A stretch of 36,562 bases of DNA from a virus (lineage: Duplodnaviria > Caudoviricetes): positions 1 to 36,562 of IMG/VR virus record IMGVR_UViG_3300024310_000019; one strand, 5' to 3'. Positions 1 through 28,773 of this stretch are shown one piece after another. Position numbers and translations under genes: made by a program. The notes below the pieces were generated by a model. It saw nothing but the letters and a program-made list of their open reading frames with translations. It searched no databases and was not told where the DNA came from. The stretch's first letter is position 1, and every line of letters begins with the position of its first letter.

Positions 1-730
1 CGCCACTTATATCTGCCTGAATGGGTTGTACTTTGCTTTTGGCTGCTGACGATTGCATGTGCTTTTCGTAGGCTTCTAATACCCATCCACCTTTGCATAG
101 GCATAGATAGCAGCTGTCCTGAGTCTTTTTCTTCCTGCATAGGTAGTTACTTAGCTTATCGAGCATCCACTCGAGCTGCTCCGCACCATACAGATCGAGC
201 AGCTTGCCATGTTCCTCTTCAGTGAGATCCACCCTTTCACGATAAAAAATCTTAGGAGTGTGTGGAGCGTAAGCGCTCTCTTCTTGTTCTTTCTTTTTCT
301 TTCTTTTCTCTTCTTGATTGTGGCCCTTTGCTGGCCCTTTGCTGGCCCCTTGCTGGCCCTTTTGCTGGCCCTCATTTTCACAAAATGACTCTGTCAACCA
401 TCTGTAGACTGAAAACTTGCTGGTCGTTTTGCTGGCCACTTTTTCGAGCTTTTTTGCTTCAATGAGCTGAAACTGCTGGCCCCTAATCTCTTTATCTGTG
501 AGTCCAGTTTGCTCAGAACATATGGATCTTCCGAAGATAAATTCGAAAGGTTCGAGCTCAATTTCTTTGTGATCATGAAAAACTGTGCGTTTTTTGCAGC
601 TGCATCTTCCGAAACACCACCAGACAAACATTAGGCATTTCAAATGCCCTCCTCCCTTTCTTGGCTTAAACCACTCATGCTCGAGAAAGTATCTGGGGAT
701 AACGATAAACGGAAAATCTAGGTTAGACAT
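1..730 (-). CDS. Phage replication initiator (lambda O/DnaD-like), 3'-truncated at the window edge
   Basis: Not in the ORF track. Manual translation from ATG 730 (SD GAGGTG) is open to the edge: MSNLDFPFIVIPRYFLEHEWF...IELEPFEFIFGRSICSEQTGLTDKEIRG...LTEEEHGKLLDLYGAEQLEWMLDKLSNY; it contains iterons as O-type genes do. Confidence 0.85.
   Translation of the reverse strand, partial: MSNLDFPFIVIPRYFLEHEWFKPRKGGGHLKCLMFVWWCFGRCSCKKRTVFHDHKEIELEPFEFIFGRSICSEQTGLTDKEIRGQQFQLIEAKKLEKVASKTTSKFSVYRWLTESFCENEGQQKGQQGASKGPAKGHNQEEKRKKKKEQEESAYAPHTPKIFYRERVDLTEEEHGKLLDLYGAEQLEWMLDKLSNYLCRKKKTQDSCYLCLCKGGWVLEAYEKHMQSSAAKSKVQPIQADISG
277..483. repeat. Iterons plus polypyrimidine tract: putative replication origin inside the initiator gene
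   Basis: Tandem 11-12 bp (T)TTGCTGGCCC repeats at ~319-371, degenerate copies at 417-437 and 474-483, and an adjacent CT-rich tract at 277-315. Confidence 0.8.
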
Positions 731-1909: not shown

Positions 1910-2239
1910 CTAGCCTTCACTCTTTTTTCCCTTTTCATAGTCGGTGCTTTTATTTGGGCAATACTTTGAGAGACGATTTTTTACCCTATTTTCTAGTCTT
2001 GGCCTACCTGCTTTTCTTGAACCTGGCAATCTCTCTTTTGGTTCTTCTGTCTCGTTGGTAGGCAGCATGTCCTTACAGGTGACAGCTCCTAACGTGGCAT
2101 TCTCTATCTTCAATGCGACACGCAATGTAGGTTCCTTGCCTGACATTACGTTGTGGATGGTCCCTAGAGATACTCCCGCTTTTGATGCGAAAAATGATAT
2201 CTTTGTGCCATTTGATAATAAATACTCTCTGAGCTTCAT
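1910..2239 (-). CDS. Cro-like (XRE/YdaS-type) HTH regulator with basic C-terminal tail
   Basis: MKLREYLLSNGTKISFFASKAGVSLGTIHNVMSGKEPTLRVALKIENATLGAVTCKDM; start revised to ATG 2239 with SD AGAGG. Confidence 0.85.
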   Translation of the reverse strand: MKLREYLLSNGTKISFFASKAGVSLGTIHNVMSGKEPTLRVALKIENATLGAVTCKDMLPTNETEEPKERLPGSRKAGRPRLENRVKNRLSKYCPNKSTDYEKGKKSEG

Positions 2240-2272
2240 GTGAGGCCTCTTTGCTTTTTTATGATTATCCTC

Positions 2273-2344
2273 TTGCGGAATATTATTCAATCCGCTATAT
2301 TTATGGATGTAAGCGATTGTAGCCTACAGAGTGAAAAACGTCAA
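2273..2344. promoter_or_regulatory. Face-to-face promoter pair with inverted-repeat operators
   Basis: + strand TTGCGG(2273)-N17-TATATT(2296); - strand TTGACG(2344)-N17-TACAAT(2321); IRs GCGGA-N11-TCCGC (2275-2295) and TGTAG-C-CTACA (2318-2328). Confidence 0.7.
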
Positions 2345-2566: not shown

Positions 2567-2840
2567 GGCCAGCAGAGATGATTATATCGCTCGTGAAATG
2601 TATGAGCGGAGAAAGATTATCCTAGATGAAGCTTCCCAGTATGTCCCACAACCTCTGTCGGAAGCACTCATTGACTTGCTAATCGCCGCTCATGACTGGG
2701 ATATACCAGAAGCAGATAAATTTATCAACTTGTTGCACCTAGAGGATAAAGACTGGGCTGCCCTTAAGGATGATAGACGCACCTACACCGATATACTAAA
2801 TCAGGAGGAATATGATGCAAGATCCATGTACTACGGATGA
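2547..2840 (+). CDS. Hypothetical protein
   Basis: 97 aa ORF with SD AAGGAG. Confidence 0.75.
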   Translation: MYEMLDKASRDDYIAREMYERRKIILDEASQYVPQPLSEALIDLLIAAHDWDIPEADKFINLLHLEDKDWAALKDDRRTYTDILNQEEYDARSMYYG

Positions 2841-3390
2841 GTTTCAAGGATGTACCAGGGTAACAACTGTGCTGGCTCCGTTCTCGGGGCTGGCCAATAT
2901 ACCTCTAAGCGTATTGAATAATGCGGCGGAGAGAGGCACTGTGGTGCATCGTATATGTGAGGGGTACATCATGGGTTATGGAGTATCTATACCAGATCAG
3001 TATAAGGGATATGTGGATAGCTTCTTACAGTGGTATGAGGGTAAGGACTTCCTGCCTAATCCAGGACGATTGTACGACAAGGTTAATATGATCACTGGTG
3101 AATGCGATGCCATATGGGATAGTGATGATGGCAATCACCTAGTAGACTTTAAGACATCTGTTCGAGAAGGAAAGACATGGCCTTTGCAGGGTGTGGCATA
3201 CAAAAACTTGCTAGAGTTAAATGGAATCTCTGTAGATAGAATTATATTTGTTAAACTAGATAAGAACGGTCTAGAACCAACGGTATACGAATACGACTAT
3301 GAACAGCATGAGGAGACATGGGCAAGATGCCTTAAGGTGTACAGAGACTTTTTTGATTGTAAGATCATCCCTTTCGAAGAAATTATTTAA
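2812..3390 (+). CDS. PD-(D/E)XK phage exonuclease (partner of Bet)
   Basis: RVTTVL...AAERGTVVH...GECD...LVDFKTS...QGVAY motifs; adjacent to the recombinase. Confidence 0.85.
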   Translation: MMQDPCTTDEFQGCTRVTTVLAPFSGLANIPLSVLNNAAERGTVVHRICEGYIMGYGVSIPDQYKGYVDSFLQWYEGKDFLPNPGRLYDKVNMITGECDAIWDSDDGNHLVDFKTSVREGKTWPLQGVAYKNLLELNGISVDRIIFVKLDKNGLEPTVYEYDYEQHEETWARCLKVYRDFFDCKIIPFEEII

Positions 3391-3402: not shown

Positions 3403-4182
3403 ATGAATGAATTAGTTGAGAATAAAAACACTGGACTTAATCAGTTCCCACAGGAGAAGATTGCACTTCTAAAGAGCACCATTTGCAAAGGAGCTAGTGA
3501 CTTGGAGCTGCAATTTTTTATCCATGTATGTGCTAAGACGGGACTAGATCCTTTCCTACGCCAGATATACTCTATACCACGTGGAGGCACTAGGACTATA
3601 CAGACGGGCATCGATGGCTATCGCGTTATAGCAGACCGTACAGGTCGCTATTCTCCTGGTAGGGATCCCGTGTATTCTTACGATGAGAAAGGTGGATTAT
3701 TATCAGCCACGGCGTACGTGAAGAAGATGACTCCTGATGGTGTATGGCATGACATATCAGCAACAGCATTCTGGGCTGAATACTCGGCCAAGACGTCCTT
3801 CTGGGATAAGATGCCACATAATCAGCTGGCTAAGTGTGCTGAAGCTCTAGCACTGCGTAAGGCATTCCCGGCAGAGTTATCGGGAATCTACACTGCTGAA
3901 GAGATGGACCAAGCTGACCATCCGGTCATTGAGGTGCAAAAACCTGTCAAAGCCATAGAGCCTAGCAGAGAGCATGTCAACAATGAGATGAGGATGTTCT
4001 TAGACCAATTCGATGCCAGGGATAAAGATCACATGAGAGAGTATCTTGAGAAGTATTCCAATCACTGGAAGAAGACATTATGGGAAGGGTTCTCAGAGTA
4101 TTCTAACGATCCAGAGAGATTTTGCAGGGACTTTAGTGTATGGAAGAATAAACACTATCCACAGACGAAGGAAGTTGTTTAG
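3403..4182 (+). CDS. bet: Phage recombination protein Bet (Red-beta/RecT family single-strand annealing protein)
   Basis: GLDPFLRQIY, GIDGYRVIADRTG, WDKMPHNQLAKCAEALALRKAFP, GIYTAEEM signatures. Confidence 0.93.
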   Translation: MNELVENKNTGLNQFPQEKIALLKSTICKGASDLELQFFIHVCAKTGLDPFLRQIYSIPRGGTRTIQTGIDGYRVIADRTGRYSPGRDPVYSYDEKGGLLSATAYVKKMTPDGVWHDISATAFWAEYSAKTSFWDKMPHNQLAKCAEALALRKAFPAELSGIYTAEEMDQADHPVIEVQKPVKAIEPSREHVNNEMRMFLDQFDARDKDHMREYLEKYSNHWKKTLWEGFSEYSNDPERFCRDFSVWKNKHYPQTKEVV

Positions 4183-4310: not shown

Positions 4311-4508
4311 ATGATTGAATGGATACCAGCGGTAAGCATGTTTTTAGCTAGTGCCGCTCTAATATGTTGGTTTAGGCAAGAATCAAGATCAGATTATCGC
4401 CATATGGATGCTAAGATTGAAGCCAACTTGCAGGCGATTAGAGATGAAATGAAAGACTTTCACGGTCGTCTATGCGCCATAGAGGAAAGAAACAAAACTA
4501 AGGCTTAG
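4311..4508 (+). CDS. Small membrane-anchored coiled-coil protein (MKDFHGRLCAIEER type)
   Basis: ATG 4311 with SD GGAGA; N-terminal TM helix followed by coiled coil. Confidence 0.75.
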   Translation: MIEWIPAVSMFLASAALICWFRQESRSDYRHMDAKIEANLQAIRDEMKDFHGRLCAIEERNKTKA

Positions 4509-6508: not shown

Positions 6509-8410
6509 TTAGAAATATTCTACTATAATTATTCTACCATCTGCGCCATTTCCACCAGCTCCAGATGCATTTGATGACAAGTTTCCTGCTCCACCGCCAC
6601 CACCACCTGAAGGAGTTCCGCCGTTTCCACCAGTGCCCGCAACTGTCGTTGCGTCATGTCCACCGCCACCACCACCAGTACCCCCAACTAATAATCCAGT
6701 GAGGCCAGGATTACCATTGCCGGCTGTATTACCAGCATTATCTCCTGCTAATCCTCCAGCTACAATAACGGTAGTTTGATCAGGTTGGGTAATAGATGCA
6801 GCAGCTGCTCCTATTCTTGCGGTTGTGGTGGCATATCCGCTTCCTCCCCCGCCCCCCCCCGACCATCCAAACACATAGTTATTGGCAGATGTTGCAACAG
6901 CGTTAGCACCATTCCCACCGTTCGCAGATCCTTGTATAGAGAATAATGAAAAGTATAAGCTTGTACCGCCTGTAGCAGTACCATTTACACCTCCAGCACC
7001 TCCAGCACCTCCGGGAACTACTATAAGAGCTCCAACAGAGGAAGGGTTCCCTTGTGTGCCTGGATTGCCATTGGTAGTTACTGCATTTATAGCTATTCCA
7101 CCTGCCCCACCAGTTCCCACAGTAATCGTGTATGGGCTACCTGTGATCAACGATGCTTGGCTCTTAAGATAATATAAATTTCCTCCTGCGCCACCAGCCC
7201 CTCCACCAGCAGCTCCGCTTACTCCACAACGCCCGCTACCACCGCCGCCACCACCACTCCAAACATAAAATTCTACAAATTTAGTTTTAGTGTCTATTGT
7301 CCAACTTCCGTTGCTGGTAAATGAGGTTATTTTAGACGCGCTAGTTCCCTGGAATGTGGGAAGAGCTCCGGCACCATTAGAGGTAAGAACCTGTCCTGAA
7401 GTGCCTACAGAGGCAATACTTTGTACAGCACCTGTTGATGTAGTGCCACCCGTTAATACGGCGTAAGCAGTTAGAGAGGTATCGCCTGTTCCGCCTTGAG
7501 AGACTGCTACGGGACCATATGCTGTGGGGGTTGCTGTTGATGTATTTATCGTACTGCTAGATCCTGTCCATGCTATTGGCGAATAATTTAGGGCTCCAAG
7601 ACCAGTAATAGCATTTGTGTTGCTCGAGTTGACCAGGCACTCATACATATTTAAAGTCGAACCGGTGCCAACGGACACAGCGCTAGCAGAGCCACCGACA
7701 AATAGGGTGTTCCATGCTGTGCCACCACCTGAACCACCGCAAGTAAGTGCCGTGGTATTAATTGCGTTTACAGTGCACCTGTCGAACGATATAGTAGATG
7801 TACTGGAAGTTGTAATAGGTGAATTTAATGTACAATCAAAGAACTGGGCAGCATTACTAGTCAGGGTGCTAGGTGTAACTGATGATCCACCATTCGAATC
7901 GACACAGTAGAACATATTAAGACCCCCACTATCAATGGAGAACAGTTTTATTCCTGTGGTCTGCTTGATAGCCTGGCATCGATATAGGTTTATTAATTGT
8001 GCGTTGCCACTTCCTGTGTTAGTGATAATGTCGTTGTTGGACCCTATTAGGAAACACTCAATAACATTTATCCTAGTATTTGTTGACCCGGTAACTGCAA
8101 TACAGGCATTACTATTGGTCTGAACCTGCAACCCTGAGATAGAAGCAATACCAGAGTACGAACATGCAAGGCTTCCTATGATAGTAACATTAGGAGTTAC
8201 CGCATCTGCCGTATATGCTACTAGGTTGACGCCAGCTTTCATCGTAAGATTTTCGGTGTAAGTACCAGGCATAATGAATATAGTCTCACCACTAGAGGCA
8301 CTAGTAATCGCTGCGGCAATCGTTGTATGTGTGCCTAAATAGGATGTAGAATTTACGATCCATTTGGCAGGACCGAAGTTGTTTGTAGATAACTGCTGAG
8401 CCATATCCAT
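6509..8410 (-). CDS. Tail fibre/spike with beta-helix-like N-terminal part and glycine-rich C-terminal domain
   Basis: TTIAAAITSASSGETIFIMPGTYTENL beta-helix cap; GQVLTSNGAGALPTF linker; FTSNGSWT...GGGGGGG...GADGRIIIVEYF glycine-rich domain. Confidence 0.85.
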   Translation of the reverse strand: MDMAQQLSTNNFGPAKWIVNSTSYLGTHTTIAAAITSASSGETIFIMPGTYTENLTMKAGVNLVAYTADAVTPNVTIIGSLACSYSGIASISGLQVQTNSNACIAVTGSTNTRINVIECFLIGSNNDIITNTGSGNAQLINLYRCQAIKQTTGIKLFSIDSGGLNMFYCVDSNGGSSVTPSTLTSNAAQFFDCTLNSPITTSSTSTISFDRCTVNAINTTALTCGGSGGGTAWNTLFVGGSASAVSVGTGSTLNMYECLVNSSNTNAITGLGALNYSPIAWTGSSSTINTSTATPTAYGPVAVSQGGTGDTSLTAYAVLTGGTTSTGAVQSIASVGTSGQVLTSNGAGALPTFQGTSASKITSFTSNGSWTIDTKTKFVEFYVWSGGGGGGSGRCGVSGAAGGGAGGAGGNLYYLKSQASLITGSPYTITVGTGGAGGIAINAVTTNGNPGTQGNPSSVGALIVVPGGAGGAGGVNGTATGGTSLYFSLFSIQGSANGGNGANAVATSANNYVFGWSGGGGGGSGYATTTARIGAAAASITQPDQTTVIVAGGLAGDNAGNTAGNGNPGLTGLLVGGTGGGGGGHDATTVAGTGGNGGTPSGGGGGGAGNLSSNASGAGGNGADGRIIIVEYF

Positions 8411-8458
8411 CCAATTTTTATTAATGCACCAAGGTATTACCCCTGGTGCGGGTATGAT

Positions 8459-9130
8459 TTATGCTAAAGATTTAACGCATTCAATGTTGATTGAAGCTAT
8501 CGTGATAGGGAATACACTGCCAGTGATATTTGGGTTTAGAACCACAGAGCTAACGCTAGTGTTTCTAAGCTTCAACACATCATTTGCTTGGATCTCAATG
8601 ATAACGTCTCCAGTACTGTGAGCAGCATCATCATTAGGGCTTTGAGTATACCCAGAGTATATCGATCCAAGCACCACACTTCCATTTAGAAACAATCCAA
8701 AACTCCATGATGGTACTGGCTGGGGAATTGGAGGGGTGATCCTAGCCTGAAGTTGCCATGAGATATGATATATGCCGTGTTTAAGGAATTTCAATGAACC
8801 GTCAACATTGGCCATTGTTAGGTCGAAGTCTGGAGCAGATACCTGGTTTTTCTTGTCAAATAATACCATATCTGTGGCAGATGAGTAAGGAGTAATTGTT
8901 TGCTGAATAGAGGCATATACGTTGCAATATCTAGTGCATGCACCTGTCTCTGAGCAGTCACAGTCTTTACCTGGAGTTCCTTGTGGTCCTTGAGGCCCTT
9001 GCATGCCGGATGGACCTTGAGCACCCTGAGCACCAGGTACGCCTTGAATACCTTGTGGGCCTTGCATACCAGCGGGACCTTGGGGCCCTTGGATACAGCA
9101 ATGATGCCACATTTGATCTTCTCTACACAT
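8459..9130 (-). CDS. Collagen-like protein with BclA-CTD/C1q-like head
   Basis: Start revised to ATG 9130 (SD AAGGAG); GXY triplet run; C-terminal GIYHISW...LFLNG...[14 protein letters not shown]...ASINI. Confidence 0.85.
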
Positions 9131-9162
9131 ACTACGCTCCTTGAAATATTCGTTCTTCACAG

Positions 9163-9981
9163 CTAAGTCACTGTGATATTCCCCACCGCATTTAAAATAG
9201 TCCAGGTAGTCGAGGCGCCTCCTACAGTGGCAAGGAGGTATACACAATCGTTTGCATTAGTAGATGCAACGCTACCAGTTATTCCTATTGTAGATGTTTG
9301 TGATCCGAAAATTATCTTTTGGTTTGCGTTTTGCGCTATTTTCCATCCTCCGCTGCCTCTACCAGCCACAACTATGACTGAAAATTGAGCGGCTGTTGCT
9401 GGAAGAGTAAGGGTTACTAGACCTGCGTTGTCTGCCAAATATCCATTTTGAATTGCCATTGATGCACTTGTTCCAGTGACATCATTCCATGTAAAACCCC
9501 CTGAAGACATGCTGACAAAACCATTTGCATCTACTGAGAATTGAGAGCTATTGAAAGCTGCTAGACCAATCTTAGTAGCATCCGTTGCTGCAATGGCTTG
9601 GGATATTTGTACTTCTACAGCTAATGTATTTGCTCCTGTCCCGTCAGTTCGAACTGGGTTTGTACCAGCAGCTACTGTAGCTCCGTTTATAGTTAGAGTG
9701 CCCGATGCCGGAACTACTGGGCTAGTACCAGTCTGCACAACAACTCTCTCTATTGCTGCAGCCCCACCAACTAAGTCTATCGTTATGTTGGGTGATGAGT
9801 AACCAATTGAAAGAGTGCCTAATGGAGATGTGAGAGTGCCTACTTTTATATTCGGAGTTGCCGTAGATCCTATTAAAAGCTGCCCGTTAGTAGTAACCTG
9901 AGGAGAGCCTGAAGTCAGCGAATTCCCGGTGAAATCCACGTTCAAGGCGTACATCACAGATCCGGTATCAAATCCTGGCAT
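9163..9981 (-). CDS. Tail fibre protein
   Basis: [30 protein letters not shown] and C-terminal [11 protein letters not shown]...[11 protein letters not shown] fibre-type motifs. Confidence 0.8.
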
Positions 9982-9988
9982 AAAAATC

Positions 9989-10549
9989 CTACGCTGAAAA
10001 TGTATAAGTTAGGAATGCTGTCCAATGTATAACGAATCCCGCAGCACCATCAGAAACACCGAGAACATCAATAAGTATATTATTACCACTAACTGCAAGC
10101 ACAGCTGATGATGCGCTAAGAGCTCCTTCTTCGAAATGGTCTACGACCTGCGTAGGAATCAATGTTGCAGTCGCTCCGTCTGTACGGACAGCACCCACAA
10201 TCGTAAATCCACATCCCAAAGGAGATCCGACGCCAGTAATGGCGAATCCTGCTACCGTGGCATCAATTGTATATACTCCTGGAAGTAGTGCTGCTAATGG
10301 GAATGTAATTACTGTACCCGTTACCGCTCCAGTAGTAATTGTGGATCCACTAATGGAACTTGGACTTAGGGCAATAAGTATTGTATTTCCCGATCCTGTA
10401 GTGCTAATTCCCTGCGTTCCGTCGCCAGGAGTCACCACCCTGACGATATTTGCTGCAGGTACGACCGGTACACCAAAATCCGTTATAAAAGTCGTTGGGA
10501 CTGAGGGTGGTAGAGACCCTGCAACGTTTGTTATTCCAGCTTGGCTCAT
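9989..10549 (-). CDS. Fibre/appendage protein
   Basis: Beta-rich; shares the 'VP-xx-ISTTGSGNT' module with neighbouring fibre genes. Confidence 0.65.
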   Translation of the reverse strand: MSQAGITNVAGSLPPSVPTTFITDFGVPVVPAANIVRVVTPGDGTQGISTTGSGNTILIALSPSSISGSTITTGAVTGTVITFPLAALLPGVYTIDATVAGFAITGVGSPLGCGFTIVGAVRTDGATATLIPTQVVDHFEEGALSASSAVLAVSGNNILIDVLGVSDGAAGFVIHWTAFLTYTFSA

Positions 10550-10891
10550 CTACTCTCCAAACGCATAAACACATGTGATAAATACTGATCCCGATGTAGG
10601 GGCTGTATTTTGCTTTACATATACTTGGGTACCTATCTTCAATACAAACTCTGTTGCTGTTACACCATTAGTGGTTAGGTCATACAGAGCAAAGGATGTA
10701 GCAGGGATATAATCATGATCGTTAGTGCCATCGAATGAGATAAACATGTCCGCATTCGTATTATTGACAATCTTCATCAGCCTAACTATGTGACCAAAAG
10801 CTGTTCCTATCGGTAAATAACTGCCTGTGACAGATCCAAATGCTATTGATCTTAGCGTATCGAATTTGACTGACTTTGCGAATCCGGACAT
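10550..10891 (-). CDS. Hypothetical virion beta-sandwich protein
   Basis: 113 aa; IVNNTNADMFISFDG motif; position in the structural operon. Confidence 0.7.
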   Translation of the reverse strand: MSGFAKSVKFDTLRSIAFGSVTGSYLPIGTAFGHIVRLMKIVNNTNADMFISFDGTNDHDYIPATSFALYDLTTNGVTATEFVLKIGTQVYVKQNTAPTSGSVFITCVYAFGE

Positions 10892-10899
10892 GTTTTTTC

Positions 10900-11109
10900 C
10901 TATTGTTCTGCAGGTGTTGCGACTTCAGTTTCCTCAGGTTCACCACAGGTCTGTGTTTGTTTCTGAGCTTCTAATAACCTTTCAACGATAAACCCCTTCA
11001 TCTTGTAAAGTACATCATGTACTTCACCTAAAGGGCTATCAGATGGCAGGCTAAGTTGGTATACCCTGCCATTCATTACAACTTCTAGTATAGATTGCTG
11101 CTTTAGCAT
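10900..11109 (-). CDS. Hypothetical protein (possible fibre chaperone)
   Basis: 69 aa, SD GAGG, directly after the long fibre gene. Confidence 0.65.
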   Translation of the reverse strand: MLKQQSILEVVMNGRVYQLSLPSDSPLGEVHDVLYKMKGFIVERLLEAQKQTQTCGEPEETEVATPAEQ

Positions 11110-11145
11110 TTTTCCTCTTGTGGTTAGGTTACGTCGTCAAGCATA

Positions 11146-13611
11146 TTATGTGGGGCGAACTATGAAATAAGCATAGGACGACACATCGGCAGTCTGAGTT
11201 GAAGCGGGCGTGCCCAATATCACACTTGTAACCGTAAAACTTGCGCCGTTCGATATCGTGTATGTCAATTCACCTAATGTTACAGATGCATTCACGGCCG
11301 TTCTGGTCAACAAGATCACGTCTCCCGTAGCTATGTTGGTGTTTGCTATTGTCTGAGTGCCAGCGGTTAACACACCTGTGCCGATAAAGTCTGTTACTGC
11401 ACCACCATTCACGAGTAGAGTTTTGGCAACTGTGGCAATAGATAAGTGACCACCAGATACGTTGAAATTACCTGTGCCTGTTGTTGCTGTAATACCGCCT
11501 GCGGTATCAGACGCAGTCAGCTGAATTGCCGTTGCTGCTGCTTGAGATGAGGCTATATTAGTCTGCAATGCGGAATCCATGTCGATACCACCTGCAGGAG
11601 CCTCTAGATTTATAGCATCTGCTGACGCCAAACCTGTTGCCCTGACAGTGATCCCACCGACATCAGAAAGAAGACCAATAGATGAAACACCAGTACCTTG
11701 ATCGGCATGCACTTGAATAGTTTCACTGGTGCCACCGTTAGCGTGTAAACGAATAGCAAGAGCTGCATTTTCTGTCGATTCAACTAAAATCGATCCACCT
11801 ACACTTAGTAGGTTTAAATCTGCTCCAGCTCCGGTGACTGTAAAGTTAGACGTTGCTGCAGAATCTAAAGACAAGACGCCTGTTGTATCAATTGTAATGC
11901 CGCCAGTCCCTGCATCTACATCAATACCCCCATCTGCGGCAGAAGCAAATATCCTAACTGAATTGGCTGCAGCAGCTTGTGATGAGGTAATATTAATTTG
12001 AAGGGCAGCATCCAGGTCAAATCCGCCTGTAGAATCTATATTGATAGCATCTGAAACCGCTTCACCAGCGTTTAATAAGATACTTCCTGCTGTAGACTGG
12101 ATGGTTATGTCAAATGCTCCGGTAGCAGTGAAATTAGAAGCTGCTGCAGCGTCTAAACTTATTGCGCCGGTTGTATCTACAATGAATCCAGCGGTGCCAG
12201 CATCAATATCAATACCGCCACCAGCTGCAGAGGTATTAATATTTACAGAGTCAGCTGTTCCCAATCCACCTGTTAGCGTTAATCCCCCAGCTGTAGATAC
12301 TAATTCGATAGACGTTGCTGCTGTACCTTGCTGGTTTCTAACTCTTATAGTTTCGGAGGTTCCGCCATTTGTGTTCAACGATATAGCTAGGGCAGCATTC
12401 TCTGTAGAACTAAGATTGATAGAGCTACCGGTTGCGATGATATCGATATCTTCTCCAGCTGAAGCACCAGAAGCTAAAATATCAATACCGCCGGCTGTAG
12501 ATTCAATGACTATAGAATCGGCAGCGCTTTGTGTTGACCTAATATTAAACTGCAGGGCAGCGTCCATATCTATGCCGCCTGCAGCTGCTTCTAGATTGAT
12601 AGCATCATTTGAGGCCAGACCTGTAGATCTTAGAGTAATTCCACCAACATCTGACAAAAGACCGATAGATGCGACGCCAGTTCCCTGGTCAGAATGCACT
12701 TGGATTGTCTCAGATGTACCACCATTAGCATGTAGACGGATTGCTAATGCTGCGTTTTCAGTGGAACTAACAAGAACAGAGCCTAGAACAGACGCTAGGG
12801 TTAAATCTATTCCTGCTCCAGTTGTAGTAATATTAGAAGCGGCAGCAGCATCTATAGAGATGGCTCCAGTAGAGTCTACGGTGATTCCACCTGTTCCGGA
12901 ATCAATGTCAATGCCGCCAGCGACATCATCGGCTTGAATTCTAACTGCATTTACAGCAGCCTCTCCACCTGTTAAAATTAACTGCCCTGCAGCACTATCA
13001 ACAGTTAGATCTATTCCTGCACCAGTAACACCTAAACTAGATGCTGATGTAGACGTCATTGATAAAGCGCCCGTCGCACCTGTAAAAGTAACGGCTCCTG
13101 TTGCTGTTAGATCTGTAAAAGACCCAGATCCACTACCGCCTGCAACATATGTAGCTAGCTTAAGAGGCGTAACTATCCTTGTGTCATCCAATCCTGCATC
13201 TGTTTCCGCTTGTGTTGCAATCTCAGCTATACCGGATTGAGTTTCACTTGCAGGAGGAACTGCTCCAACGACGATCCCTTGAATAACTGTAGCTACATCA
13301 TTGGATAGCGGAACATAAGCGCCTGCAGGAGCATTACCATTTTGCAGTTGGCTTAGAGTAGCTAACGTAACGATACCCGGTGTAGTGGTAGTAGCTTCCG
13401 CGTCTGAACCTGTTAGCCAATTGGCGCCAGAAGTAGAGACGCCAGCTAGTTGGAATAATGTGTTCGTAGGAACGTTTAACCATACCGTGCCAAGAGGGTA
13501 TTTCTTATCGTTGGCAGTAGGATCTCGGTTAGCTTTGATTAAATTCATCGGATTAGGAGCTGTTACCCCCTCATACGCTTGTGCGCTAGGAACTGGGTTC
13601 TTGCCGGACAT
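11146..13611 (-). CDS. Long repetitive tail fibre/adhesin
   Basis: 821 aa; GIAEIATQAETDAGLDDTRIVTPLKL fibre repeat; three STENAALAIxLxxNGGTSETI repeats; many GGID units. Confidence 0.85.
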   Translation of the reverse strand: MSGKNPVPSAQAYEGVTAPNPMNLIKANRDPTANDKKYPLGTVWLNVPTNTLFQLAGVSTSGANWLTGSDAEATTTTPGIVTLATLSQLQNGNAPAGAYVPLSNDVATVIQGIVVGAVPPASETQSGIAEIATQAETDAGLDDTRIVTPLKLATYVAGGSGSGSFTDLTATGAVTFTGATGALSMTSTSASSLGVTGAGIDLTVDSAAGQLILTGGEAAVNAVRIQADDVAGGIDIDSGTGGITVDSTGAISIDAAAASNITTTGAGIDLTLASVLGSVLVSSTENAALAIRLHANGGTSETIQVHSDQGTGVASIGLLSDVGGITLRSTGLASNDAINLEAAAGGIDMDAALQFNIRSTQSAADSIVIESTAGGIDILASGASAGEDIDIIATGSSINLSSTENAALAISLNTNGGTSETIRVRNQQGTAATSIELVSTAGGLTLTGGLGTADSVNINTSAAGGGIDIDAGTAGFIVDTTGAISLDAAAASNFTATGAFDITIQSTAGSILLNAGEAVSDAINIDSTGGFDLDAALQINITSSQAAAANSVRIFASAADGGIDVDAGTGGITIDTTGVLSLDSAATSNFTVTGAGADLNLLSVGGSILVESTENAALAIRLHANGGTSETIQVHADQGTGVSSIGLLSDVGGITVRATGLASADAINLEAPAGGIDMDSALQTNIASSQAAATAIQLTASDTAGGITATTGTGNFNVSGGHLSIATVAKTLLVNGGAVTDFIGTGVLTAGTQTIANTNIATGDVILLTRTAVNASVTLGELTYTISNGASFTVTSVILGTPASTQTADVSSYAYFIVRPT

Positions 13612-13673: not shown

Positions 13674-15143
13674 TCAGACTTCTTTTTCTGCTTCCTCGCT
13701 CTTTCGTGAAGCTTTCTTACCAGGATGAGTTGCTTTACCAGCTCCGACGCCTTTTCTTTTGGGCGGCTTGGGCTCTTTTGCCTTTCGTGGCTTCGGTTTT
13801 TCTCTGAGTTCTTCCCAAAAGTCATAGCCTGTCTCAAACTTTTTCCATGTTTTATTACGATTCTCCCTAGAAAACCTAGGATCTTTTATGATCTCTTGGA
13901 TTAGAGCTGCCCCTCTAGAATCTTGTATTCCCTGCTCCCACTTACCAAAGATATTCTGGCCACTAGTAACTGGAATGCCTAATGCTTCTGCTATCTTATG
14001 GATCTTTTCTGGATCTACACCTTGATAAGTGTACAGATTTCCATTGTGATATTGCACTGCTAACTCTTGAGATTCGGGTTCATAACCAAAGAAGGCCATA
14101 ACAGCAGACCGACGTGATTCAGGTATCTCTAATAGCTTGATTACAGATTCTTTTACATTTTCAGGTACTTGCTCTATCTTATTGGCATCAACATGTCGGA
14201 TCCTGCCATCTACATTTATCCTGGCTATGCCATCTTTTACCCTTTCAATTTCTCCTACACTGCCATCTGGCAGCTGGGCCATATTTCCTATAGGACTAGA
14301 TTGAGGTTTCTCTTCTGGTAATTTTTGTTCGATAGTTTCTTTGTTGATTTCCTGTACGGGTTGCTCTTCATTAACTTCAGGAGTAATTGAAAGATAGTCG
14401 GAAACAACCTGTTCTATAGGTGCTTTTGTTTGCTCTGACAGCCATTTCTTCTGACCAGGAGTCATTATAAAATCTGCTATTCTTGCTTTATCTTCATTGG
14501 ATAGATGGTTTTGGGTTTTCAATACATTCTTGATGTTGTCCATTTGTGAGATGATATCGAAATGCTTTCTGGGATCTTCAACTTGGGATCGGGGTTCTTC
14601 GGCAGCCTGAGGTTGCATAGGTTGCATAGGTTGTTGCACAGGTTGTTGCATAGGTTGCTGATTAGGCATTTGATTTGGTTGTGGGACTTGTACCCCTTGA
14701 CCACCAGGCATTGGCTGTGGCGCAGATCCGGGTTGAGTATGGGATAAACCCAGCTTATTCATTAACCCTTGAGCAAGAGGGTTCTGTGCAATCTGTGGCA
14801 GTCCACGTAGAGCTCTAGCTGCCAACATACCTCCGCCCACTCCCAACGCAAGGGGTGCCGCTTGCTTAGATGCTGCCGTTAGCGCTTCGCCTAAATGGCC
14901 ACCTCTCTCTGCTGCTTGCTGTCCGGCTATTAGTGGATTACCTCCGGCTCTGGATGAAGTCTTGGACAATTTCTCTAGTTCTTTAGGCTTAAGCTTAGAG
15001 ATATATTTGACCATTTCTTCAGCACTATACCCAGCTTGTGAAGCTGCTTCCAACTTAGATTGAAGGTCAGGGAATCTCTGAATGAGATTTCTAATGATAT
15101 CTCGAGCTGAGTAACCAATTGCTAGGGCATTTGATAAGTTCAT
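13674..15143 (-). CDS. Putative ejection (internal virion) protein with C-terminal KTSC domain
   Basis: SAVMAFFGYEPESQELAVQYHNGNLYTYQGV matches the KTSC pattern; SH3/KOW-like segment; Q/P-rich linker; third gene in the ejection cluster. Confidence 0.7.
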   Translation of the reverse strand: MNLSNALAIGYSARDIIRNLIQRFPDLQSKLEAASQAGYSAEEMVKYISKLKPKELEKLSKTSSRAGGNPLIAGQQAAERGGHLGEALTAASKQAAPLALGVGGGMLAARALRGLPQIAQNPLAQGLMNKLGLSHTQPGSAPQPMPGGQGVQVPQPNQMPNQQPMQQPVQQPMQPMQPQAAEEPRSQVEDPRKHFDIISQMDNIKNVLKTQNHLSNEDKARIADFIMTPGQKKWLSEQTKAPIEQVVSDYLSITPEVNEEQPVQEINKETIEQKLPEEKPQSSPIGNMAQLPDGSVGEIERVKDGIARINVDGRIRHVDANKIEQVPENVKESVIKLLEIPESRRSAVMAFFGYEPESQELAVQYHNGNLYTYQGVDPEKIHKIAEALGIPVTSGQNIFGKWEQGIQDSRGAALIQEIIKDPRFSRENRNKTWKKFETGYDFWEELREKPKPRKAKEPKPPKRKGVGAGKATHPGKKASRKSEEAEKEV

Positions 15144-15144
15144 A

Positions 15145-16551
15145 TCAATATCTTGGAGTGTAAAATGGTAACGGTCTCATCACTGCTTCCCAGAATCCTA
15201 GATTTTTTATAGGCTCCCTATTTAGCAAACCTAACTGGCTTACCTGAGTTGGATCCAACATAATCTTACCAGATTCTTGTAGACGTCTAAGTATGTCTCC
15301 GAATTCTTGCCAAGTTCCACCCTTATCTGTGAACTCTTTTTGCAATAGTAGGAGCGAAGTTCCAGGAGTAAACACATTTCCTTGTTTAGCGTTTTCTGTT
15401 CCCGGCTTAATCACATCGGCAAGGTATTTCTCATAAGATTTTATCTCTTTATTTCTCATGCCTTGAGCTTTTGTGAATTCTTCTTCGAATCCAGGTTGGT
15501 CAGGAAGGGTTTTTACTCTGGCTAGCACTTCAGGCATTTTAGGTAGATCTTTAAACCCTGATTTTACTGACTCGTCCAATGGATTTATGATATCGTCAAC
15601 CTCGCCAGGACCCCATCCTGCTTCTTTTAATATCCTTATTGCATGATCTCTCTGACCAAATTTCTCCATATTTTTAGCCATTGGTCTCATGTTTTTCTTT
15701 TGTCTTTGTAGTTCTAAGTCATCGAAATTTCTTCGGTCTGCTGACTTTGTAAAATTATCTTTAGCATATTCGTATTCATTGAACTTCTTCTTCGCTGCGG
15801 CTGCTCTAGCTTTCTCATTAGACAGTTTCAATATATCTGGCTCTTCAGCGATTTTTTCAGCTACTGTTAAGTCATCTTCACTGAGAGGCCTCCCTCCGGA
15901 CTCTAATTCTTTTTTTAGAGTCGCACGAAATCTCTGTTGTGCATCAGATCTCAATGACGCAATATCTGCCTGGGTCTTGGCTGCCTGTACGTAATCAGTT
16001 AGCTCGTCTCTTGCTCTCGTATTATAATCGTCCATCATCTTTGTAATGGGCGCGGGGTCTAATCCACGCTGTGCTGCCAGTTTTTGAGCTGTTTGGATCT
16101 CTTCAGGACTATAGATTTTTGGGGCCTTACCTAATCCCAAAGCAGTTGGCTCTAAAGCTCCTTCAAAAAGGTCATTCTTAGGTTCTCCAATCCAGTCAGG
16201 TAACTTCTGTCTCTGTTCTCCTATATTAGATGTACCTTGAGGCGCTTGCATTCCAGAGCCAGGAGGCTGGACACCAGACTGTTGTTTTAGTTGCATCTGA
16301 TTCATTAACAGAGGGAAAAGCTGACCAACGTATTTTTCACTTCCTGGAATCCCAGCTGTAGATGATATTAATGCTGAGGCTAAGTCAAATGGCGTTGCAT
16401 TTGGATCATTAGAAAGACCTTTAAGATCTTTCAAGCTATTTTGAACAAGTCCTCTTTGATATTGCTGTTGGAATGCTGGGATCAATGCATTTTGAAGTCC
16501 CTGACCAAAAAACTGTGCTGCCCCGGGGGTGCGTTGTACTACTTGAACCAT
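15145..16551 (-). CDS. Putative ejection (internal virion) protein
   Basis: 468 aa, helical Q/E/K-rich, FGQGLQNAL N-terminus; position after tail genes. Confidence 0.65.
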   Translation of the reverse strand: MVQVVQRTPGAAQFFGQGLQNALIPAFQQQYQRGLVQNSLKDLKGLSNDPNATPFDLASALISSTAGIPGSEKYVGQLFPLLMNQMQLKQQSGVQPPGSGMQAPQGTSNIGEQRQKLPDWIGEPKNDLFEGALEPTALGLGKAPKIYSPEEIQTAQKLAAQRGLDPAPITKMMDDYNTRARDELTDYVQAAKTQADIASLRSDAQQRFRATLKKELESGGRPLSEDDLTVAEKIAEEPDILKLSNEKARAAAAKKKFNEYEYAKDNFTKSADRRNFDDLELQRQKKNMRPMAKNMEKFGQRDHAIRILKEAGWGPGEVDDIINPLDESVKSGFKDLPKMPEVLARVKTLPDQPGFEEEFTKAQGMRNKEIKSYEKYLADVIKPGTENAKQGNVFTPGTSLLLLQKEFTDKGGTWQEFGDILRRLQESGKIMLDPTQVSQLGLLNREPIKNLGFWEAVMRPLPFYTPRY

Positions 16552-16560
16552 GATTGTCTC

Positions 16561-17328
16561 CTAGTAAGCAAATCCGAATTGATTCATCTGATCAAAGTTT
16601 GGCATTCCCATGCCAGGATTTTGGCTAGCCCATTGAGGTACAGGGCCCATTCCACCGTTTCCACCACTACTTCCGGATCCCCGACCGCCCCACTGATTAT
16701 TAGCACCAGCCATTAAGGCATAAGGAAGAGTCCCAGCCATATAATCGCCAGCTCCGGGTTGCCCTTGTTGATAGACATTTTCATATGGACTAACGCCGAA
16801 ACCTTGCATCATATTGCTATAGGGTTGTTGAGCATATTGCAGTGCTTGAGGAAGAGCCTGCATCTGTAGTTGTCCTCTTAATGCACCAATATTCGTTGAT
16901 AGATTTGTACCGGCTTGCCCCAATGAGTTATAAAGAGCACTACTACTTCCTGCCCCTGCTCCAGTTCCCATGCCAGCAAATCTCTCAGCTATAGCGGGTA
17001 CAGTTTGCTGCTGAAATTGTTGCATAAGAGGCGCTTCAAACTGCTGGTATGCGCTTGGATCTCCAGAAAGTAGATTCTGTAAATACTGATTACCTGCTTG
17101 GTAAGTCTGGTTATTCTGTACAGGATTCTTCCAATATTGTTCAAAAGCCTGCTGTTGCTCAGGAGAAAATCGATTTACTTGTTTGAATTTGTCTTTCTTT
17201 CCTCCACCGAATAATCCAGACACTAAACCTGCAAGTCCACCTACCCCAGCACCTATCCAACCTCCCGGGGCTCCTGCGGCAGCTCCAGAAGCAGCGCCGG
17301 ATAAGGCTCCTGACCAATTTAATCCCAT
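16561..17328 (-). CDS. DNA transfer/pilot ejection protein (P22 gp7-like)
   Basis: G/A-rich hydrophobic N-terminus GAAAGAPGGWIGAGVGGLAGLVSGLFG; Q/G-rich body. Confidence 0.75.
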   Translation of the reverse strand: MGLNWSGALSGAASGAAAGAPGGWIGAGVGGLAGLVSGLFGGGKKDKFKQVNRFSPEQQQAFEQYWKNPVQNNQTYQAGNQYLQNLLSGDPSAYQQFEAPLMQQFQQQTVPAIAERFAGMGTGAGAGSSSALYNSLGQAGTNLSTNIGALRGQLQMQALPQALQYAQQPYSNMMQGFGVSPYENVYQQGQPGAGDYMAGTLPYALMAGANNQWGGRGSGSSGGNGGMGPVPQWASQNPGMGMPNFDQMNQFGFAY

Positions 17329-17335: not shown

Positions 17336-17839
17336 CTAAGTTTTCAAATATTCTAGAGTAATATAACACTGCGTTAGTGGTGATCCAAAATTATTGTCTA
17401 TGTTTATGTTTGAATCGTCAAAGTTAATTTCTATGTTGTTATTGGTGGCTGACGCATATGGCAGAGGCAGATACTTAGGCCCTGAAACGGTTGCTGTTCC
17501 GTAAATCCTAGTAGGTATTGTAACTAGTGATATGCCATGAGGTATCGTAGTTAGCCCAGCAGGGATATTTCCACCGTTTATTTCCACCATATCGACAACT
17601 TTTCGGTAAGAATATCTAGTGGTTTTGGCTGCTGTAGGCTGGGACGTGCTAAACCATTGTTGGGCATTTAATATTTCACTCTTTTCGTATTGACCATTTT
17701 CCTTAACATTCAAAATTGAAGCTGTTAGCCGCTCACGTTGGCTAATAAGATTTTGAAATTTACTCTGGTCTTCAGGAAAATCGACTTCAGGAGGTAGATA
17801 AGACGATTGGCTATTAGGAGGTCCGTATCCGTATGTCAT
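17336..17839 (-). CDS. Tail-associated structural protein
   Basis: TIPHGI...RIYGTAT...CYITLEYLK beta-domain motif; follows the tail hub gene. Confidence 0.65.
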   Translation of the reverse strand: MTYGYGPPNSQSSYLPPEVDFPEDQSKFQNLISQRERLTASILNVKENGQYEKSEILNAQQWFSTSQPTAAKTTRYSYRKVVDMVEINGGNIPAGLTTIPHGISLVTIPTRIYGTATVSGPKYLPLPYASATNNNIEINFDDSNINIDNNFGSPLTQCYITLEYLKT

Positions 17840-20088: not shown

Positions 20089-20729
20089 TAATTACCGACT
20101 GCCATCCAATTTATTTGAGAGATGTTGGATCCTCCACTATTTACACTTCCCCAAGAAAACTGTGTCTGATCGTTAGGCCCTGCAAAATCTATCCAAGGTA
20201 ATCTTGCCGGTGTAACACCATTGCTTTCGCAACCTGTGATAACTACGGAAAATTGAGCATTTGGGAATGGTAGGGGAAAATCTGTAGTTCCAGAAGAGGC
20301 AGTGACAGTGAAAAATCCGTATTGAAAAATTAGTCCTCCCGAGAGGAAACACCAGCCTCCTCTTTGGTTTGGAGCATTATAAAGCGTTTCCGTACCAAAT
20401 ATTGCAAAACCAGCGGCATTAGAAGGGACAGGCCCAGTAAATTGGACCCCAGCAAAAGAACTATTCTGCCTAATATATAAATTTCCTGCGTTGGCCCACA
20501 GTAAAGCATTTGTTCCGTCCCCTGGCATGGGTACGTTATTCGTAGCTCTGTTGTTAAACGAAACCTGTTTATGCCTTCCTTCGAAGCTTGCAGTGCTTAG
20601 ATCTCCGATAGCTATCTGATGGTCTTTGCCCAAAGTAGATACTAGGTAATCGAAATTAGCCTTCAATTGAGGTTGGCTCTGTGACCCTAGAATATCTCCC
20701 GGGTTTGGAATGCTTAAATACGTGGACAT
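20088..20729 (-). CDS. Short fibre protein with gp53-like C-terminal domain
   Basis: GWCFLSGGLIFQYG...FPLPFPNAQFSV...WMAVGN signature. Confidence 0.8.
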   Translation of the reverse strand: MSTYLSIPNPGDILGSQSQPQLKANFDYLVSTLGKDHQIAIGDLSTASFEGRHKQVSFNNRATNNVPMPGDGTNALLWANAGNLYIRQNSSFAGVQFTGPVPSNAAGFAIFGTETLYNAPNQRGGWCFLSGGLIFQYGFFTVTASSGTTDFPLPFPNAQFSVVITGCESNGVTPARLPWIDFAGPNDQTQFSWGSVNSGGSNISQINWMAVGN

Positions 20730-20735
20730 TTTACC

Positions 20736-23745: not shown

Positions 23746-24696
23746 CTATGAGTGGGTTGCGCGTAGGTTAAATATCCAAGCATCATTCAAAATGCGAGGT
23801 ACCTGAGCCATTTTAAATGCACCCAACTGCAACCTTCTAAGAGGGTCTGTAGGACCACCTGGAGGTGTGTAAATAAACGATGAAGTCGCTGTAGTTAGCT
23901 CCACAATGGCATATGCTTCTTGCCCGGTAATGAATACGTTATAAACTGTATTCCCGTTCAAAGATGCTCCTGTTGTGGTGCTTCCTCTTGAGCTATACAA
24001 GAATCTAACGTTACCAACGGAACCCCATTCGGAATTCAATACATTCATGTTGCTAGGATATTGTGCTTGTGATATAAATCCAGTAACAGCTTCTAAATCA
24101 TCTAAGATACCAGTATTCATCATAGCCCAGAAAGCTTCACGAACTGGCGCAGTTCCAAACTTCAAACTACCTTCTATATTATCTGAGATCATAATGGCAT
24201 CGTTTCCTAACAATGCTAAAACTACAGCATCTATATCAGGCCTTGATAGTTCTGTTGGGTTGTCTCCATTAGTCCCACCAGTACAGTTTATCACTGAGCT
24301 AGTAGAAGCTAGCATGTTTCTTATTAATTCATCCTCTGTTTCTCTCATTGACTGAGCTAGAAGACTTACTGTTTGGTTAAGAACTGGGTCCTGATTTATG
24401 AACATAACTTGATCTGTTATGGTAACGTAAGTACCATACCAATCAAGCCTTGCATCAATATCAGTGGCATTCAATACCTGCCCAGGAGGGGTCAACCCAC
24501 TATCTGGTAATGGCACTGTAGCGGTTTGTAAGTTAGTATAGCGACGATATCTCACGATTCGGCCGCTATTAGGGGGAAGTTCCTTCTTCATAGCCATTTG
24601 CTTATGAATAAGCTTAGGCATTGGCCTAGACAGCAATACGTTGTCAAACCATTGCTGTACTGGCGCTGGAAGGCTGTTTGTTGTGGTAATTGTCAT
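23746..24696 (-). CDS. Major capsid protein (N4-gp56 family, HK97 fold)
   Basis: LPPNSGRIVRYRRY, GLTPPG, WYGTYVTITD, EWGSVGNVRF, DPLRR...KM...ILNDAWI. Confidence 0.92.
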   Translation of the reverse strand: MTITTTNSLPAPVQQWFDNVLLSRPMPKLIHKQMAMKKELPPNSGRIVRYRRYTNLQTATVPLPDSGLTPPGQVLNATDIDARLDWYGTYVTITDQVMFINQDPVLNQTVSLLAQSMRETEDELIRNMLASTSSVINCTGGTNGDNPTELSRPDIDAVVLALLGNDAIMISDNIEGSLKFGTAPVREAFWAMMNTGILDDLEAVTGFISQAQYPSNMNVLNSEWGSVGNVRFLYSSRGSTTTGASLNGNTVYNVFITGQEAYAIVELTTATSSFIYTPPGGPTDPLRRLQLGAFKMAQVPRILNDAWIFNLRATHS

Positions 24697-27561: not shown

Positions 27562-27589
27562 GATATTACCGTGTTATTACGTTCAACAA

Positions 27590-28748: not shown

Positions 28749-28773
28749 ATAATCTTAACCATATTTCTTAGTA

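What the first reader, a model, noticed from the sequence alone, without database searches (positions are those of the whole stretch)
4311..4508. Indirect evidence that this is a tailed phage of environmental Chlamydiota
Seen: a TM plus coiled-coil gene ending EMKDFHGRLCAIEERNK, a motif I recall (unverified) from hypothetical proteins of Parachlamydiales/Rhabdochlamydia-type genomes. Weaker support: no recognisable endolysin, Inc-like membrane genes, frequent CTAG. Established: characterised chlamydiaphages are ssDNA Microviridae. Inference: a dsDNA tailed phage of an obligate intracellular chlamydia, a poorly described virus-host pairing.
Basis: inference. Interest (0 to 1): 0.8.

Follow-up and report, generated by a model that had tools for sequence, protein, structure and literature searches.

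The report
Tailed phage of environmental chlamydiae
This nearly complete genome of a predicted short-tailed DNA phage carries the chromosome-resolution (dif) site of chlamydial bacteria, and chlamydial CRISPR spacers match its relatives, so it likely infects environmental chlamydiae living inside amoebae or animals, a host group whose isolated phages in the papers read are small single-stranded viruses.

Summary
The window is a near-complete podovirus-type phage with no recognised integrase or endolysin.

The 65-aa gene at 4311-4508 is real (1,012 homologs) but is a marker of this phage family. It occurs in only 5 of 250 Chlamydiota genomes, yet every solo chromosomal copy seen lies in a chlamydial genome.

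Host evidence: a dif site at 28774-28801 whose motif is in 260 of 301 Chlamydiota versus 2 of 253 control genomes. 20 of 109 chlamydial CRISPR spacers match family proteins at 8 or more of 10 residues, versus 4 of 545 shuffled. The best plasmid hits of the Bet and tail genes are Simkania and Criblamydia plasmids.

No spacer matches the window itself, the dif motif also occurs in some other phyla, and no integrated close relative was found. 'Inc-like' genes and CTAG give no support. Host Chlamydiota: about 0.9. Likely lifestyle: a circular episome using host XerCD.

The parts
4311..4508 (+). 65-aa single-pass membrane plus coiled-coil gene; family marker, also found singly in chlamydial chromosomes
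   Evidence: one chlamydial spacer encodes its EMKDFH motif
28774..28801 (+). Intact intergenic chlamydial-type dif site (XerC arm, 6-bp spacer, XerD arm)
   Evidence: bridged without a joint by an 18.5-kb contig of run X1, which may be the window's source sample
3403..4182 (+). Bet/RecT single-strand annealing protein; best plasmid hit Simkania negevensis pSn, 56%
2812..3390 (+). Exonuclease (PD-(D/E)XK type); 34% to a gene of the Criblamydia plasmid
1910..2290 (-). Cro/CI-like HTH regulator; 38% to the HTH gene near bet on Simkania pSn
2..730 (-). Replisome organiser, runs off the contig start
35857..36561 (-). DnaB-like helicase, N-terminus off the contig end
9163..9981 (-). Predicted tail protein (by position among tail genes) whose C-terminal module is shared with chlamydial plasmids and phage-plasmids
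6509..13611 (-). Tail fibre/spike gene block (glycine-rich, collagen/BclA-like, collar-fibre-like)
13674..17328 (-). Three predicted ejection proteins (by position); no lytic domain recognised
   Evidence: role inferred
17836..21812 (-). Predicted nozzle/stabiliser (17836-20088), gp53-like fibre protein and SU10-like adaptor (20736-21812)
23746..24696 (-). Major capsid protein (PF25209); up to 94% to uncultured relatives, under 29% to any record in the phage collection
30348..32459 (-). P22-like portal
33512..35139 (-). Terminase large and small subunits
27103..27991 (-). Two related small hydrophobic genes in the variable portal-capsid interval; not shown to be Inc-like

Best explanation
The window is a near-complete podovirus-type tailed phage genome that likely infects an environmental chlamydia (Parachlamydiales) and likely persists as a circular episome, using the host's XerC/XerD at its own dif site to resolve dimers. 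Shown: phage gene set, intact chlamydial-type dif, no recognised integrase or endolysin, gene sharing with named chlamydial plasmids, chlamydial spacers matching relatives. Inferred: the host of this exact genome (about 0.9); the episomal lifestyle (about 0.55, against about 0.3 for Xer-mediated integration); release without a classical endolysin. The 65-aa gene is likely an early or carrier-state membrane protein rather than a late lysis gene. My best guess is superinfection exclusion (about 0.4; holin-like about 0.25), which would explain why chlamydial chromosomes keep solo copies.
For: (1) dif: the motif is in 260 of 301 Chlamydiota genomes, mostly once; the reversed-pattern control matched in 3. 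Controls: 1 of 151 in the phylum of an Aquaspirillum MAG, 0 of 81 in the phylum of a Bacteroidales MAG, 1 of 21 in the order of a Legionellales MAG. 17 of the 150 listed sites equal the window's 21-mer exactly. All 14 Chlamydiae dif sites in PMC3025954 supplement 2 carry GTCTGATAA, and that of P. amoebophila differs from the window's at 4 of 28 positions. The site recurs in the portal-capsid interval of 16 of 37 relatives (14 after dropping two poor matches). (2) CRISPR: 109 spacers from 3 Chlamydiota genomes. 20 match family proteins at 8 or more of 10 aa and 10 at 9 or more, against 4 and 0 of 545 shuffled and 0 of 109 against unrelated phages. At DNA level 9 of 109 have at most 7 mismatches, against 0 of 109 in both controls. 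Targets include adaptor, nozzle, terminase and the small gene. (3) Small gene: 5 of 8 GTDB loci lie in Chlamydiota genomes; 7 loci from 5 such genomes are solo copies among bacterial genes. (4) Named replicons: Simkania pSn carries Bet (56%; next plasmid hits at most 41%), the HTH (38%) and a small-gene homolog (E 5e-8) side by side. The tail module hits Criblamydia and two Rhabdochlamydia plasmids, and 17 of 250 Chlamydiota versus 2 of 251 control genomes. (5) A decayed capsid (47%) and terminase piece sit among U-box, DUF4116, citrate synthase and malate dehydrogenase genes on a 223-kb contig of G178. (6) Lifestyle: among 293 cluster representatives from 130 related loci there was one tyrosine-recombinase domain, a serine resolvase cluster in 12 loci and ParA clusters in 6 and 2 loci. 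The small gene is antisense to the structural genes in 60 of 74 relatives.
Against: No spacer matches the window (best 9 mismatches). 18 of the 20 peptide matches come from one genome (G263) and hit mostly more distant family members; only one best hit lies in a locus with a capsid over 79% identical. The unrelated-phage controls were 2.6 to 5 times smaller than the family set. The dif motif is not exclusive: GTCTGATAA also occurs in 5 non-chlamydial sites and GTCCGATAA 16 times in the table (the 15 rows shown are Firmicutes, Deltaproteobacteria, Actinobacteria and others), and only 16 of 80 IMG/VR loci with the motif share 3 or more genes with the window. Only three control groups could be searched; Babelota, Acidobacteriota, Desulfobacterota and Verrucomicrobiota were not. 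Family contigs also sit in Legionellales, Aquaspirillum and Bacteroidales MAGs. The best capsid in 401 Chlamydiota genomes is only 55% identical, and the G178 remnant falls outside the family on the capsid tree. The tail module also hits a cyanobacterial plasmid (46%) and a Microcoleus phage (37%). The window has no ParA, and 21 of 37 relatives lack the site in that interval. None of 61 chlamydial dif flanks held an integrated family prophage.
Confidence: 0.85

Rival explanations
1. Same chlamydial host, but the phage integrates at the chromosomal dif through host XerCD (IMEX-like), and the window is the excised or virion form.
For: No integrase. The central hexamer equals a common chromosomal one (17 of 150 listed sites identical over 21 bp). 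In G002 a small-gene copy lies 2.5 kb from a dif site.
Against: 0 of 61 dif flanks held an integrated family prophage. None of the 69 IMG/VR or 59 metagenome contigs with a related capsid exceeded 43 kb. Some relatives carry ParA or a resolvase. The known chlamydial phage-plasmids carry the same kind of dif.
Confidence: 0.3
2. The host is another intracellular or soil bacterium (Legionellales, Babelota, Acidobacteriota, Desulfobacterota); the chlamydial links reflect gene exchange inside shared amoebae or concern only distant relatives.
For: Family contigs in three non-chlamydial MAGs. Similar dif arms in other phyla. No direct spacer. Several candidate phyla were not searchable.
Against: Those three contigs are 14-33 kb pieces made of phage genes, and none of the three MAGs has the chlamydial dif motif. 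The capsid matched only the seed genome among 51 genomes of the Legionellales MAG's class. All solo chromosomal copies of the small gene that were seen are chlamydial.
Confidence: 0.1
3. Chlamydial host, but a strictly lytic phage in which dif only resolves replication dimers, and the small gene is a holin working with an unrecognised lysin.
For: No ParA or integrase in the window. One near ESM Atlas cluster is auto-named 'Holin family protein' (score 0.94; an automatic name, a lead only). A possible lipoprotein gene (4498-4698, lipobox-like sequence read by eye) ends the late operon.
Against: A Cro/CI-like regulator and Bet/exo early region are present. The small gene is antisense to late genes in 60 of 74 relatives and is kept intact in host chromosomes. 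No holin family match.
Confidence: 0.15

Closest known systems
Chlamydiamicrovirus phages (Gokushovirinae, ssDNA) of Chlamydia
   Same: Host phylum; must reach a bacterium inside a eukaryotic cell (PMC5010888 passages; PMC3091885 abstract).
   Different: Those are small ssDNA microviruses of Chlamydiaceae; this is a 37-kb genome with terminase, portal and tail genes.
Prophage gene block on the Criblamydia sequanensis and related chlamydial plasmids ('phage group' of PMC7846284)
   Same: Tailed-phage genes in Chlamydiota, plasmid state, chlamydial dif, shared tail module (56%), exonuclease and small terminase.
   Different: Those are 73-98 kb elements with baseplate, spike and tail-assembly genes plus the chlamydial plasmid integrase and ParA; their capsid and portal gave no hit with the window's.
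P22-portal podoviruses with an N4-gp56/SU10-type capsid (Pagevirus Pascal, Pseudoalteromonas phage vB_Pun_Y3, Xanthomonas phage DES1)
   Same: Capsid family PF25209; P22-like portal and SU10-like adaptor in the window.
   Different: Capsid identity only 23-28%; the cultured ones form a separate clade; different hosts.
Integrative mobile elements exploiting Xer (CTXphi, TLCphi) and dif-bearing plasmids
   Same: No own integrase; a dif-like site for host XerCD (abstracts).
   Different: The named IMEXs are filamentous or satellite phages of Vibrio; integration is not shown here.
Phage WO of Wolbachia (Symbioviridae)
   Same: Tailed phage of an obligate intracellular bacterium (PMC9203015 abstract). 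One close relative of the window carries a U-box/RING gene whose best match among 70 Chlamydiota genomes is 33% over 176 aa.
   Different: Different host phylum; WO integrates by its own recombinase (recalled); no sequence comparison was made.

Membership tests
Caudoviricetes, podovirus-type | Large terminase, portal and HK97-lineage major capsid | tested here: met
Caudoviricetes, podovirus-type | Adaptor/nozzle tail genes, no tape measure, sheath or baseplate | tested here: met
   SU10 adaptor (below Pfam cut-off) and virion-protein hits; no sheath, baseplate or tape-measure hit, though two genes hit a PHROG labelled 'major tail protein' over 60-80 aa
Caudoviricetes, podovirus-type | Short-tailed virion by electron microscopy | not testable with these tools
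   no isolate
Phage of Chlamydiota | Host-type dif site | tested here: met
   the motif is not exclusive to the phylum
Phage of Chlamydiota | Host CRISPR spacers against the phage family | tested here: met
   20 of 109 vs 4 of 545 shuffled
Phage of Chlamydiota | Host CRISPR spacer against this genome | tested here: inconclusive
   best 9 mismatches of 32; only 3 of 20 screened genomes had Cas1
Phage of Chlamydiota | Intact close prophage joined to chlamydial chromosome genes | tested here: inconclusive
   only a decayed, more distant remnant in G178; whole-phage contigs in G156, G259 and G402 are binned, not joined
Phage of Chlamydiota | Infection shown in culture | not testable with these tools
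   none
Chlamydiamicrovirus | Small ssDNA genome with microvirus capsid and Rep | tested here: not met
Phage-plasmid | Partition and dimer-resolution functions | tested here: inconclusive
   dif present, ParA absent from the window; ParA or resolvase in some relatives
IMEX | attL/attR junction at the host dif | tested here: inconclusive
   none in 61 dif flanks; site intact in run X1
Inc proteins (27103-27991) | One long bilobed hydrophobic domain (PMC3048545 abstract; 40-60 residue length recalled) | tested here: not met
   two separate stretches of about 28 aa in one protein, none above threshold in the other
Holin (4311-4508) | Holin family match and place in the late lysis cassette beside an endolysin | tested here: not met
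   no family match; antisense to late genes in 60 of 74; no endolysin

The most novel reading that the evidence does not exclude
A large, widespread, undescribed podovirus family (over 1,000 homologs of its marker gene, many on 35-41 kb contigs) is a main dsDNA virome of environmental Chlamydiota. It lives as integrase-free, dif-bearing episomes, exits without a classical endolysin, drives CRISPR acquisition in chlamydiae, and moves genes (the membrane marker gene, tail modules, ubiquitin-ligase-like genes) among chlamydial chromosomes and plasmids.
Probability: 0.5. Interest if true: 0.88.

Novelty: new variant of a known kind. Interest (0 to 1): 0.78.

Why it matters
In the passages read, isolated chlamydial phages are ssDNA microviruses, the targets of Protochlamydia CRISPR spacers were unknown, and tailed-phage genes were reported only as a plasmid gene block or a lone terminase (PMC5010888, PMC7846284); PMC12644861 mentions unclassified viruses predicted on Chlamydiales. 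This work names a concrete, abundant tailed-phage family and gives markers (capsid, small gene, dif) to find it in amoeba single-cell data and cultures. [quoted passage not shown] It also raises testable questions: how a tailed virion reaches bacteria inside an inclusion, and how it exits without a recognisable endolysin.

Tried and rejected
CTAG frequency: at expectation, no host comparison made. Inc-like reading: rejected. Short XerD-arm pattern alone: 39 matches vs 50 expected. Host-like genes of relatives: an RNA polymerase alpha-CTD (37-43% to 5 chlamydial vs 36-42% to 5 other genomes) and GroES (24-38% vs 25-37%) did not discriminate. Cluster look-up gave no organism names. The small gene had no match in the plasmid or phage collections by tblastn, although its profile hits pSn. 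No promoter on the + strand upstream of the small gene, and no shared upstream motif was evident. No tRNA, no Rfam hit, no terminal repeat. No RNA holder listed. Chlamydial dif flanks: 0 of 61 with an integrated family prophage. The metagenome capsid scan gave no contig over 42 kb. Seven G242 spacers were cut with extra repeat letters, which inflates their DNA mismatch counts. PAMs were mixed: 3 type I-F hits had CC upstream (CC PAM recalled), others did not. The calls meant as Verrucomicrobiota and unknown-phylum controls returned Chlamydiota again. Earlier scan findings: nothing. No complex prediction or fold search was run.

Full report
What the window is. The 36,562-base record is a single virus contig. 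Pfam and PHROGs scans of 61 proteins show small and large terminase, a P22-like portal, a PF25209 major capsid, an SU10-like adaptor, virion and tail-fibre proteins, and a lambdoid early region with a Cro/CI-like HTH, exonuclease, Bet/RecT, replisome organiser and DnaB-like helicase. The contig starts inside the replisome organiser and ends inside the helicase, so probably only a short piece between them is missing (inference). No integrase, ParA, endolysin or holin was recognised. The closest capsids among 50,697 phage records are under 29% identical, while 69 IMG/VR and 59 metagenome loci reach up to 94%. The DNA is held by three soil metagenome runs, one possibly its source. Contigs of that run cover it at a depth of about 8-17, and an 18.5-kb contig bridges the capsid, dif site and portal without a joint.

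The observation. The gene at 4311-4508 is real: 65 aa, one N-terminal hydrophobic stretch, a predicted single helix, 1,012 homologs. The alignment of 53 of them shows the DFH and EE residues of the quoted motif invariant. It is a marker of this phage family: 63 of 77 IMG/VR loci that carry it share three or more other genes with the window. In GTDB a scan gave 8 loci. Three are titled Parachlamydiaceae or Parachlamydiales, and two more fall in the same GTDB phylum although titled 'Verrucomicrobia' and 'bacterium'. The other three are 14-33 kb contigs of phage genes in Legionellales, Aquaspirillum and Bacteroidales MAGs. Seven loci from five chlamydial genomes hold intact solo or tandem copies among bacterial genes at different places, one on a 998-kb contig (parB, ribonucleotide reductase and enoyl reductase by Pfam, other neighbours recognised by eye). 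Only 5 of 250 Chlamydiota genomes matched the profile (a floor). So the recollection was right, but the gene is sporadic in chlamydiae. CTAG is at expectation and the 'Inc-like' genes lack a long bilobed domain.

The dif site. An intergenic site at 28774-28801 has XerC-arm, 6-bp spacer and XerD-arm structure and is unique in the window, with 0 matches in 100 shuffles. Its motif occurs in 260 of 301 Chlamydiota genomes, usually once, against 1 of 151, 0 of 81 and 1 of 21 in three control groups. The dif table of PMC3025954 (passages and supplement 2 rows seen) lists GTCTGATAA in all 14 Chlamydiae; the P. amoebophila site differs from the window's at 4 of 28 positions. The motif is not exclusive: five other sites share GTCTGATAA and the GTCCGATAA variant occurs 16 times in other groups, and most IMG/VR contigs with the motif are unrelated to this family. 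The site recurs with a variable spacer between portal and capsid in 16 of 37 relatives, 14 after dropping two poor matches.

CRISPR. Cas1 was found in 3 of 20 large Chlamydiota genomes, and 109 spacers were extracted. Nine match family DNA with at most 7 mismatches (best 4), against none for shuffled spacers or unrelated phage loci. Translated, 20 match family proteins at 8 or more of 10 residues and 10 at 9 or more, against 4 and 0 of 545 shuffles and none against unrelated phage proteins (those controls were 2.6 to 5 times smaller). Targets include homologs of the window's adaptor, nozzle, ejection and tail proteins, a terminase of relatives, and the EMKDFH motif of the small gene (7 of 10). 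Eighteen come from G263, whose flanking genes I read by eye as a chlamydial-type uvrB-trpS-tyrP order (order recalled). No spacer matches the window itself.

Gene sharing with named chlamydial replicons. Bet's best plasmid hit is Simkania negevensis pSn (56%; other listed plasmid and phage hits at most 41%). There it lies near an HTH gene 38% identical to the window's regulator and a small-gene homolog. The C-terminal module of the tail protein at 9163-9981 hits the Criblamydia and two Rhabdochlamydia plasmids, one cyanobacterial plasmid and one weak other record, one Microcoleus phage, 17 of 250 Chlamydiota genomes, and 2 of 251 control genomes, one being the seed's own phage contig. The capsid matched 12 of 401 Chlamydiota genomes, best 55%, and only the seed among 51 genomes of the Legionellales MAG's class. 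G156, G259 and G402 hold contigs made largely of family genes, two with a dif site; these are binned, not joined. G178 holds a decayed capsid and terminase piece inside a 223-kb chromosomal contig, but that capsid branches outside the family.

How it likely works. Among 293 cluster representatives drawn from 130 related loci (150 of 152 recurrent clusters and the 143 remaining ones of 130 aa or more, of 538 clusters in all) there was no endolysin, one tyrosine-recombinase domain, a serine resolvase in 12 loci and ParA in 6 and 2 loci. None of the 11 resolvase loci listed showed the dif motif in the stretch held (partial contigs). With no integrated copy beside 61 chlamydial dif sites, I infer a circular episome that borrows host XerCD, as the chlamydial phage-plasmids with the same kind of site appear to do. 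Xer-mediated integration remains open. The absence of a recognisable endolysin fits a host with scant peptidoglycan (own knowledge), but an unrecognised lysin is not excluded. The small gene is antisense to structural genes in 60 of 74 relatives and follows bet in the window, so it is likely early or carrier-state. Superinfection exclusion is my best guess; a holin-like role is second (one search gives only an automatic cluster name).

Comparison and novelty. Ten literature searches (listings and abstract starts seen) showed no paper describing a tailed-phage family of Chlamydiota; the library lacks most subscription journals, and bioRxiv supplements were closed. Passages read: PMC5010888 (isolated chlamydial phages are Chlamydiamicrovirus; Protochlamydia spacers without matches; a lone terminase in an island), PMC7846284 (a phage gene group on two chlamydial plasmids), PMC12644861 (unclassified viruses predicted on Chlamydiales; its supplementary virus table was not read and may include family members), PMC8242063 (CRISPR in several lineages), PMC13229535 (no phage mention). 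Electron-microscopy reports of phage particles in environmental chlamydiae exist in my recollection and were not found. Tailed phages of intracellular bacteria are known (phage WO), and tailed-phage genes in chlamydiae are known, so this is a new variant rather than a new category.

Verdict. Host in Chlamydiota about 0.9 for this genome; episomal XerCD-dependent lifestyle about 0.55; interest 0.78.

Noticed in passing
Capsid genes of relatives, e.g. L053:10558-10757, L056:9243-9723, L340:791-1012, L350, L497: 18 of 69 IMG/VR relatives have the capsid gene split by inserts of about 200 to 1,500 nt at roughly ten different codons. The ten inserts inspected share a conserved core, most begin after a T and end in G, and several fold a hairpin with the upstream exon, as group I introns do (features recalled). 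12 of 69 loci carry one exact core motif and the window has none. Rfam gave no hit; LAGLIDADG and HNH genes occur in the family. This may be an undescribed compact intron class with an unusual hot spot; one literature search listed nothing on it by title.
   Followed up: partly
G252:C3, G137:C12, G186:C3, G266:C52 (L354-L371) and NZ_LK031773 (L410, L411): 73-98 kb elements in chlamydial genomes with a dif site. The ORFs of G252:C3 and the Criblamydia plasmid annotation show a largely complete head, tail and baseplate gene set with ParA, the chlamydial plasmid integrase (75% identical between the two) and cargo genes: a second, phage-plasmid lineage of chlamydial tailed phages.
   Followed up: partly
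L408, L409 (Rhabdochlamydia plasmids): Three to four tandem or scattered hypothetical genes per plasmid carry the window's tail-protein C-terminal module (29-47%): possibly domesticated phage adhesion modules.
   Followed up: no
L031:924-1652: A close relative (capsid 88%) carries a U-box/RING gene in the variable portal-capsid interval; its best match among 70 Chlamydiota genomes is 33% over residues 44-219 in G063.
   Followed up: partly
G263:C1 (L518, L520, L521): One chlamydial genome has two Cas1 loci; 18 of its 77 extracted spacers match this phage family at peptide level.
   Followed up: yes
window 4498-4698 (-) and 5996-6235 (+): A possible lipoprotein (lipobox-like sequence, read by eye) ends the late operon, overlapping the small gene's stop; a short gene with a signal-peptide-like start lies antisense among the tail genes. 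No Pfam match.
   Followed up: no
window 28113-29665 (-): Three DUF551 paralogs flank the dif site in a low-GC variable interval.
   Followed up: no
window 25901-26257 and 32805-32987 (-): A very histidine-rich protein upstream of the scaffold gene and a small lysine/alanine-rich basic protein near the portal.
   Followed up: no
IMG/VR loci L119-L234: About 1,500 IMG/VR stretches are estimated to hold this dif motif; 64 of the 80 examined share fewer than 3 genes with the window, many at high GC. dif sites seem common in unrelated phages and could serve as a host-prediction signal.
   Followed up: partly
whole window: CpG is depleted (0.62) and CGCG and CGAG/CTCG are the most avoided tetramers.
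   Followed up: no
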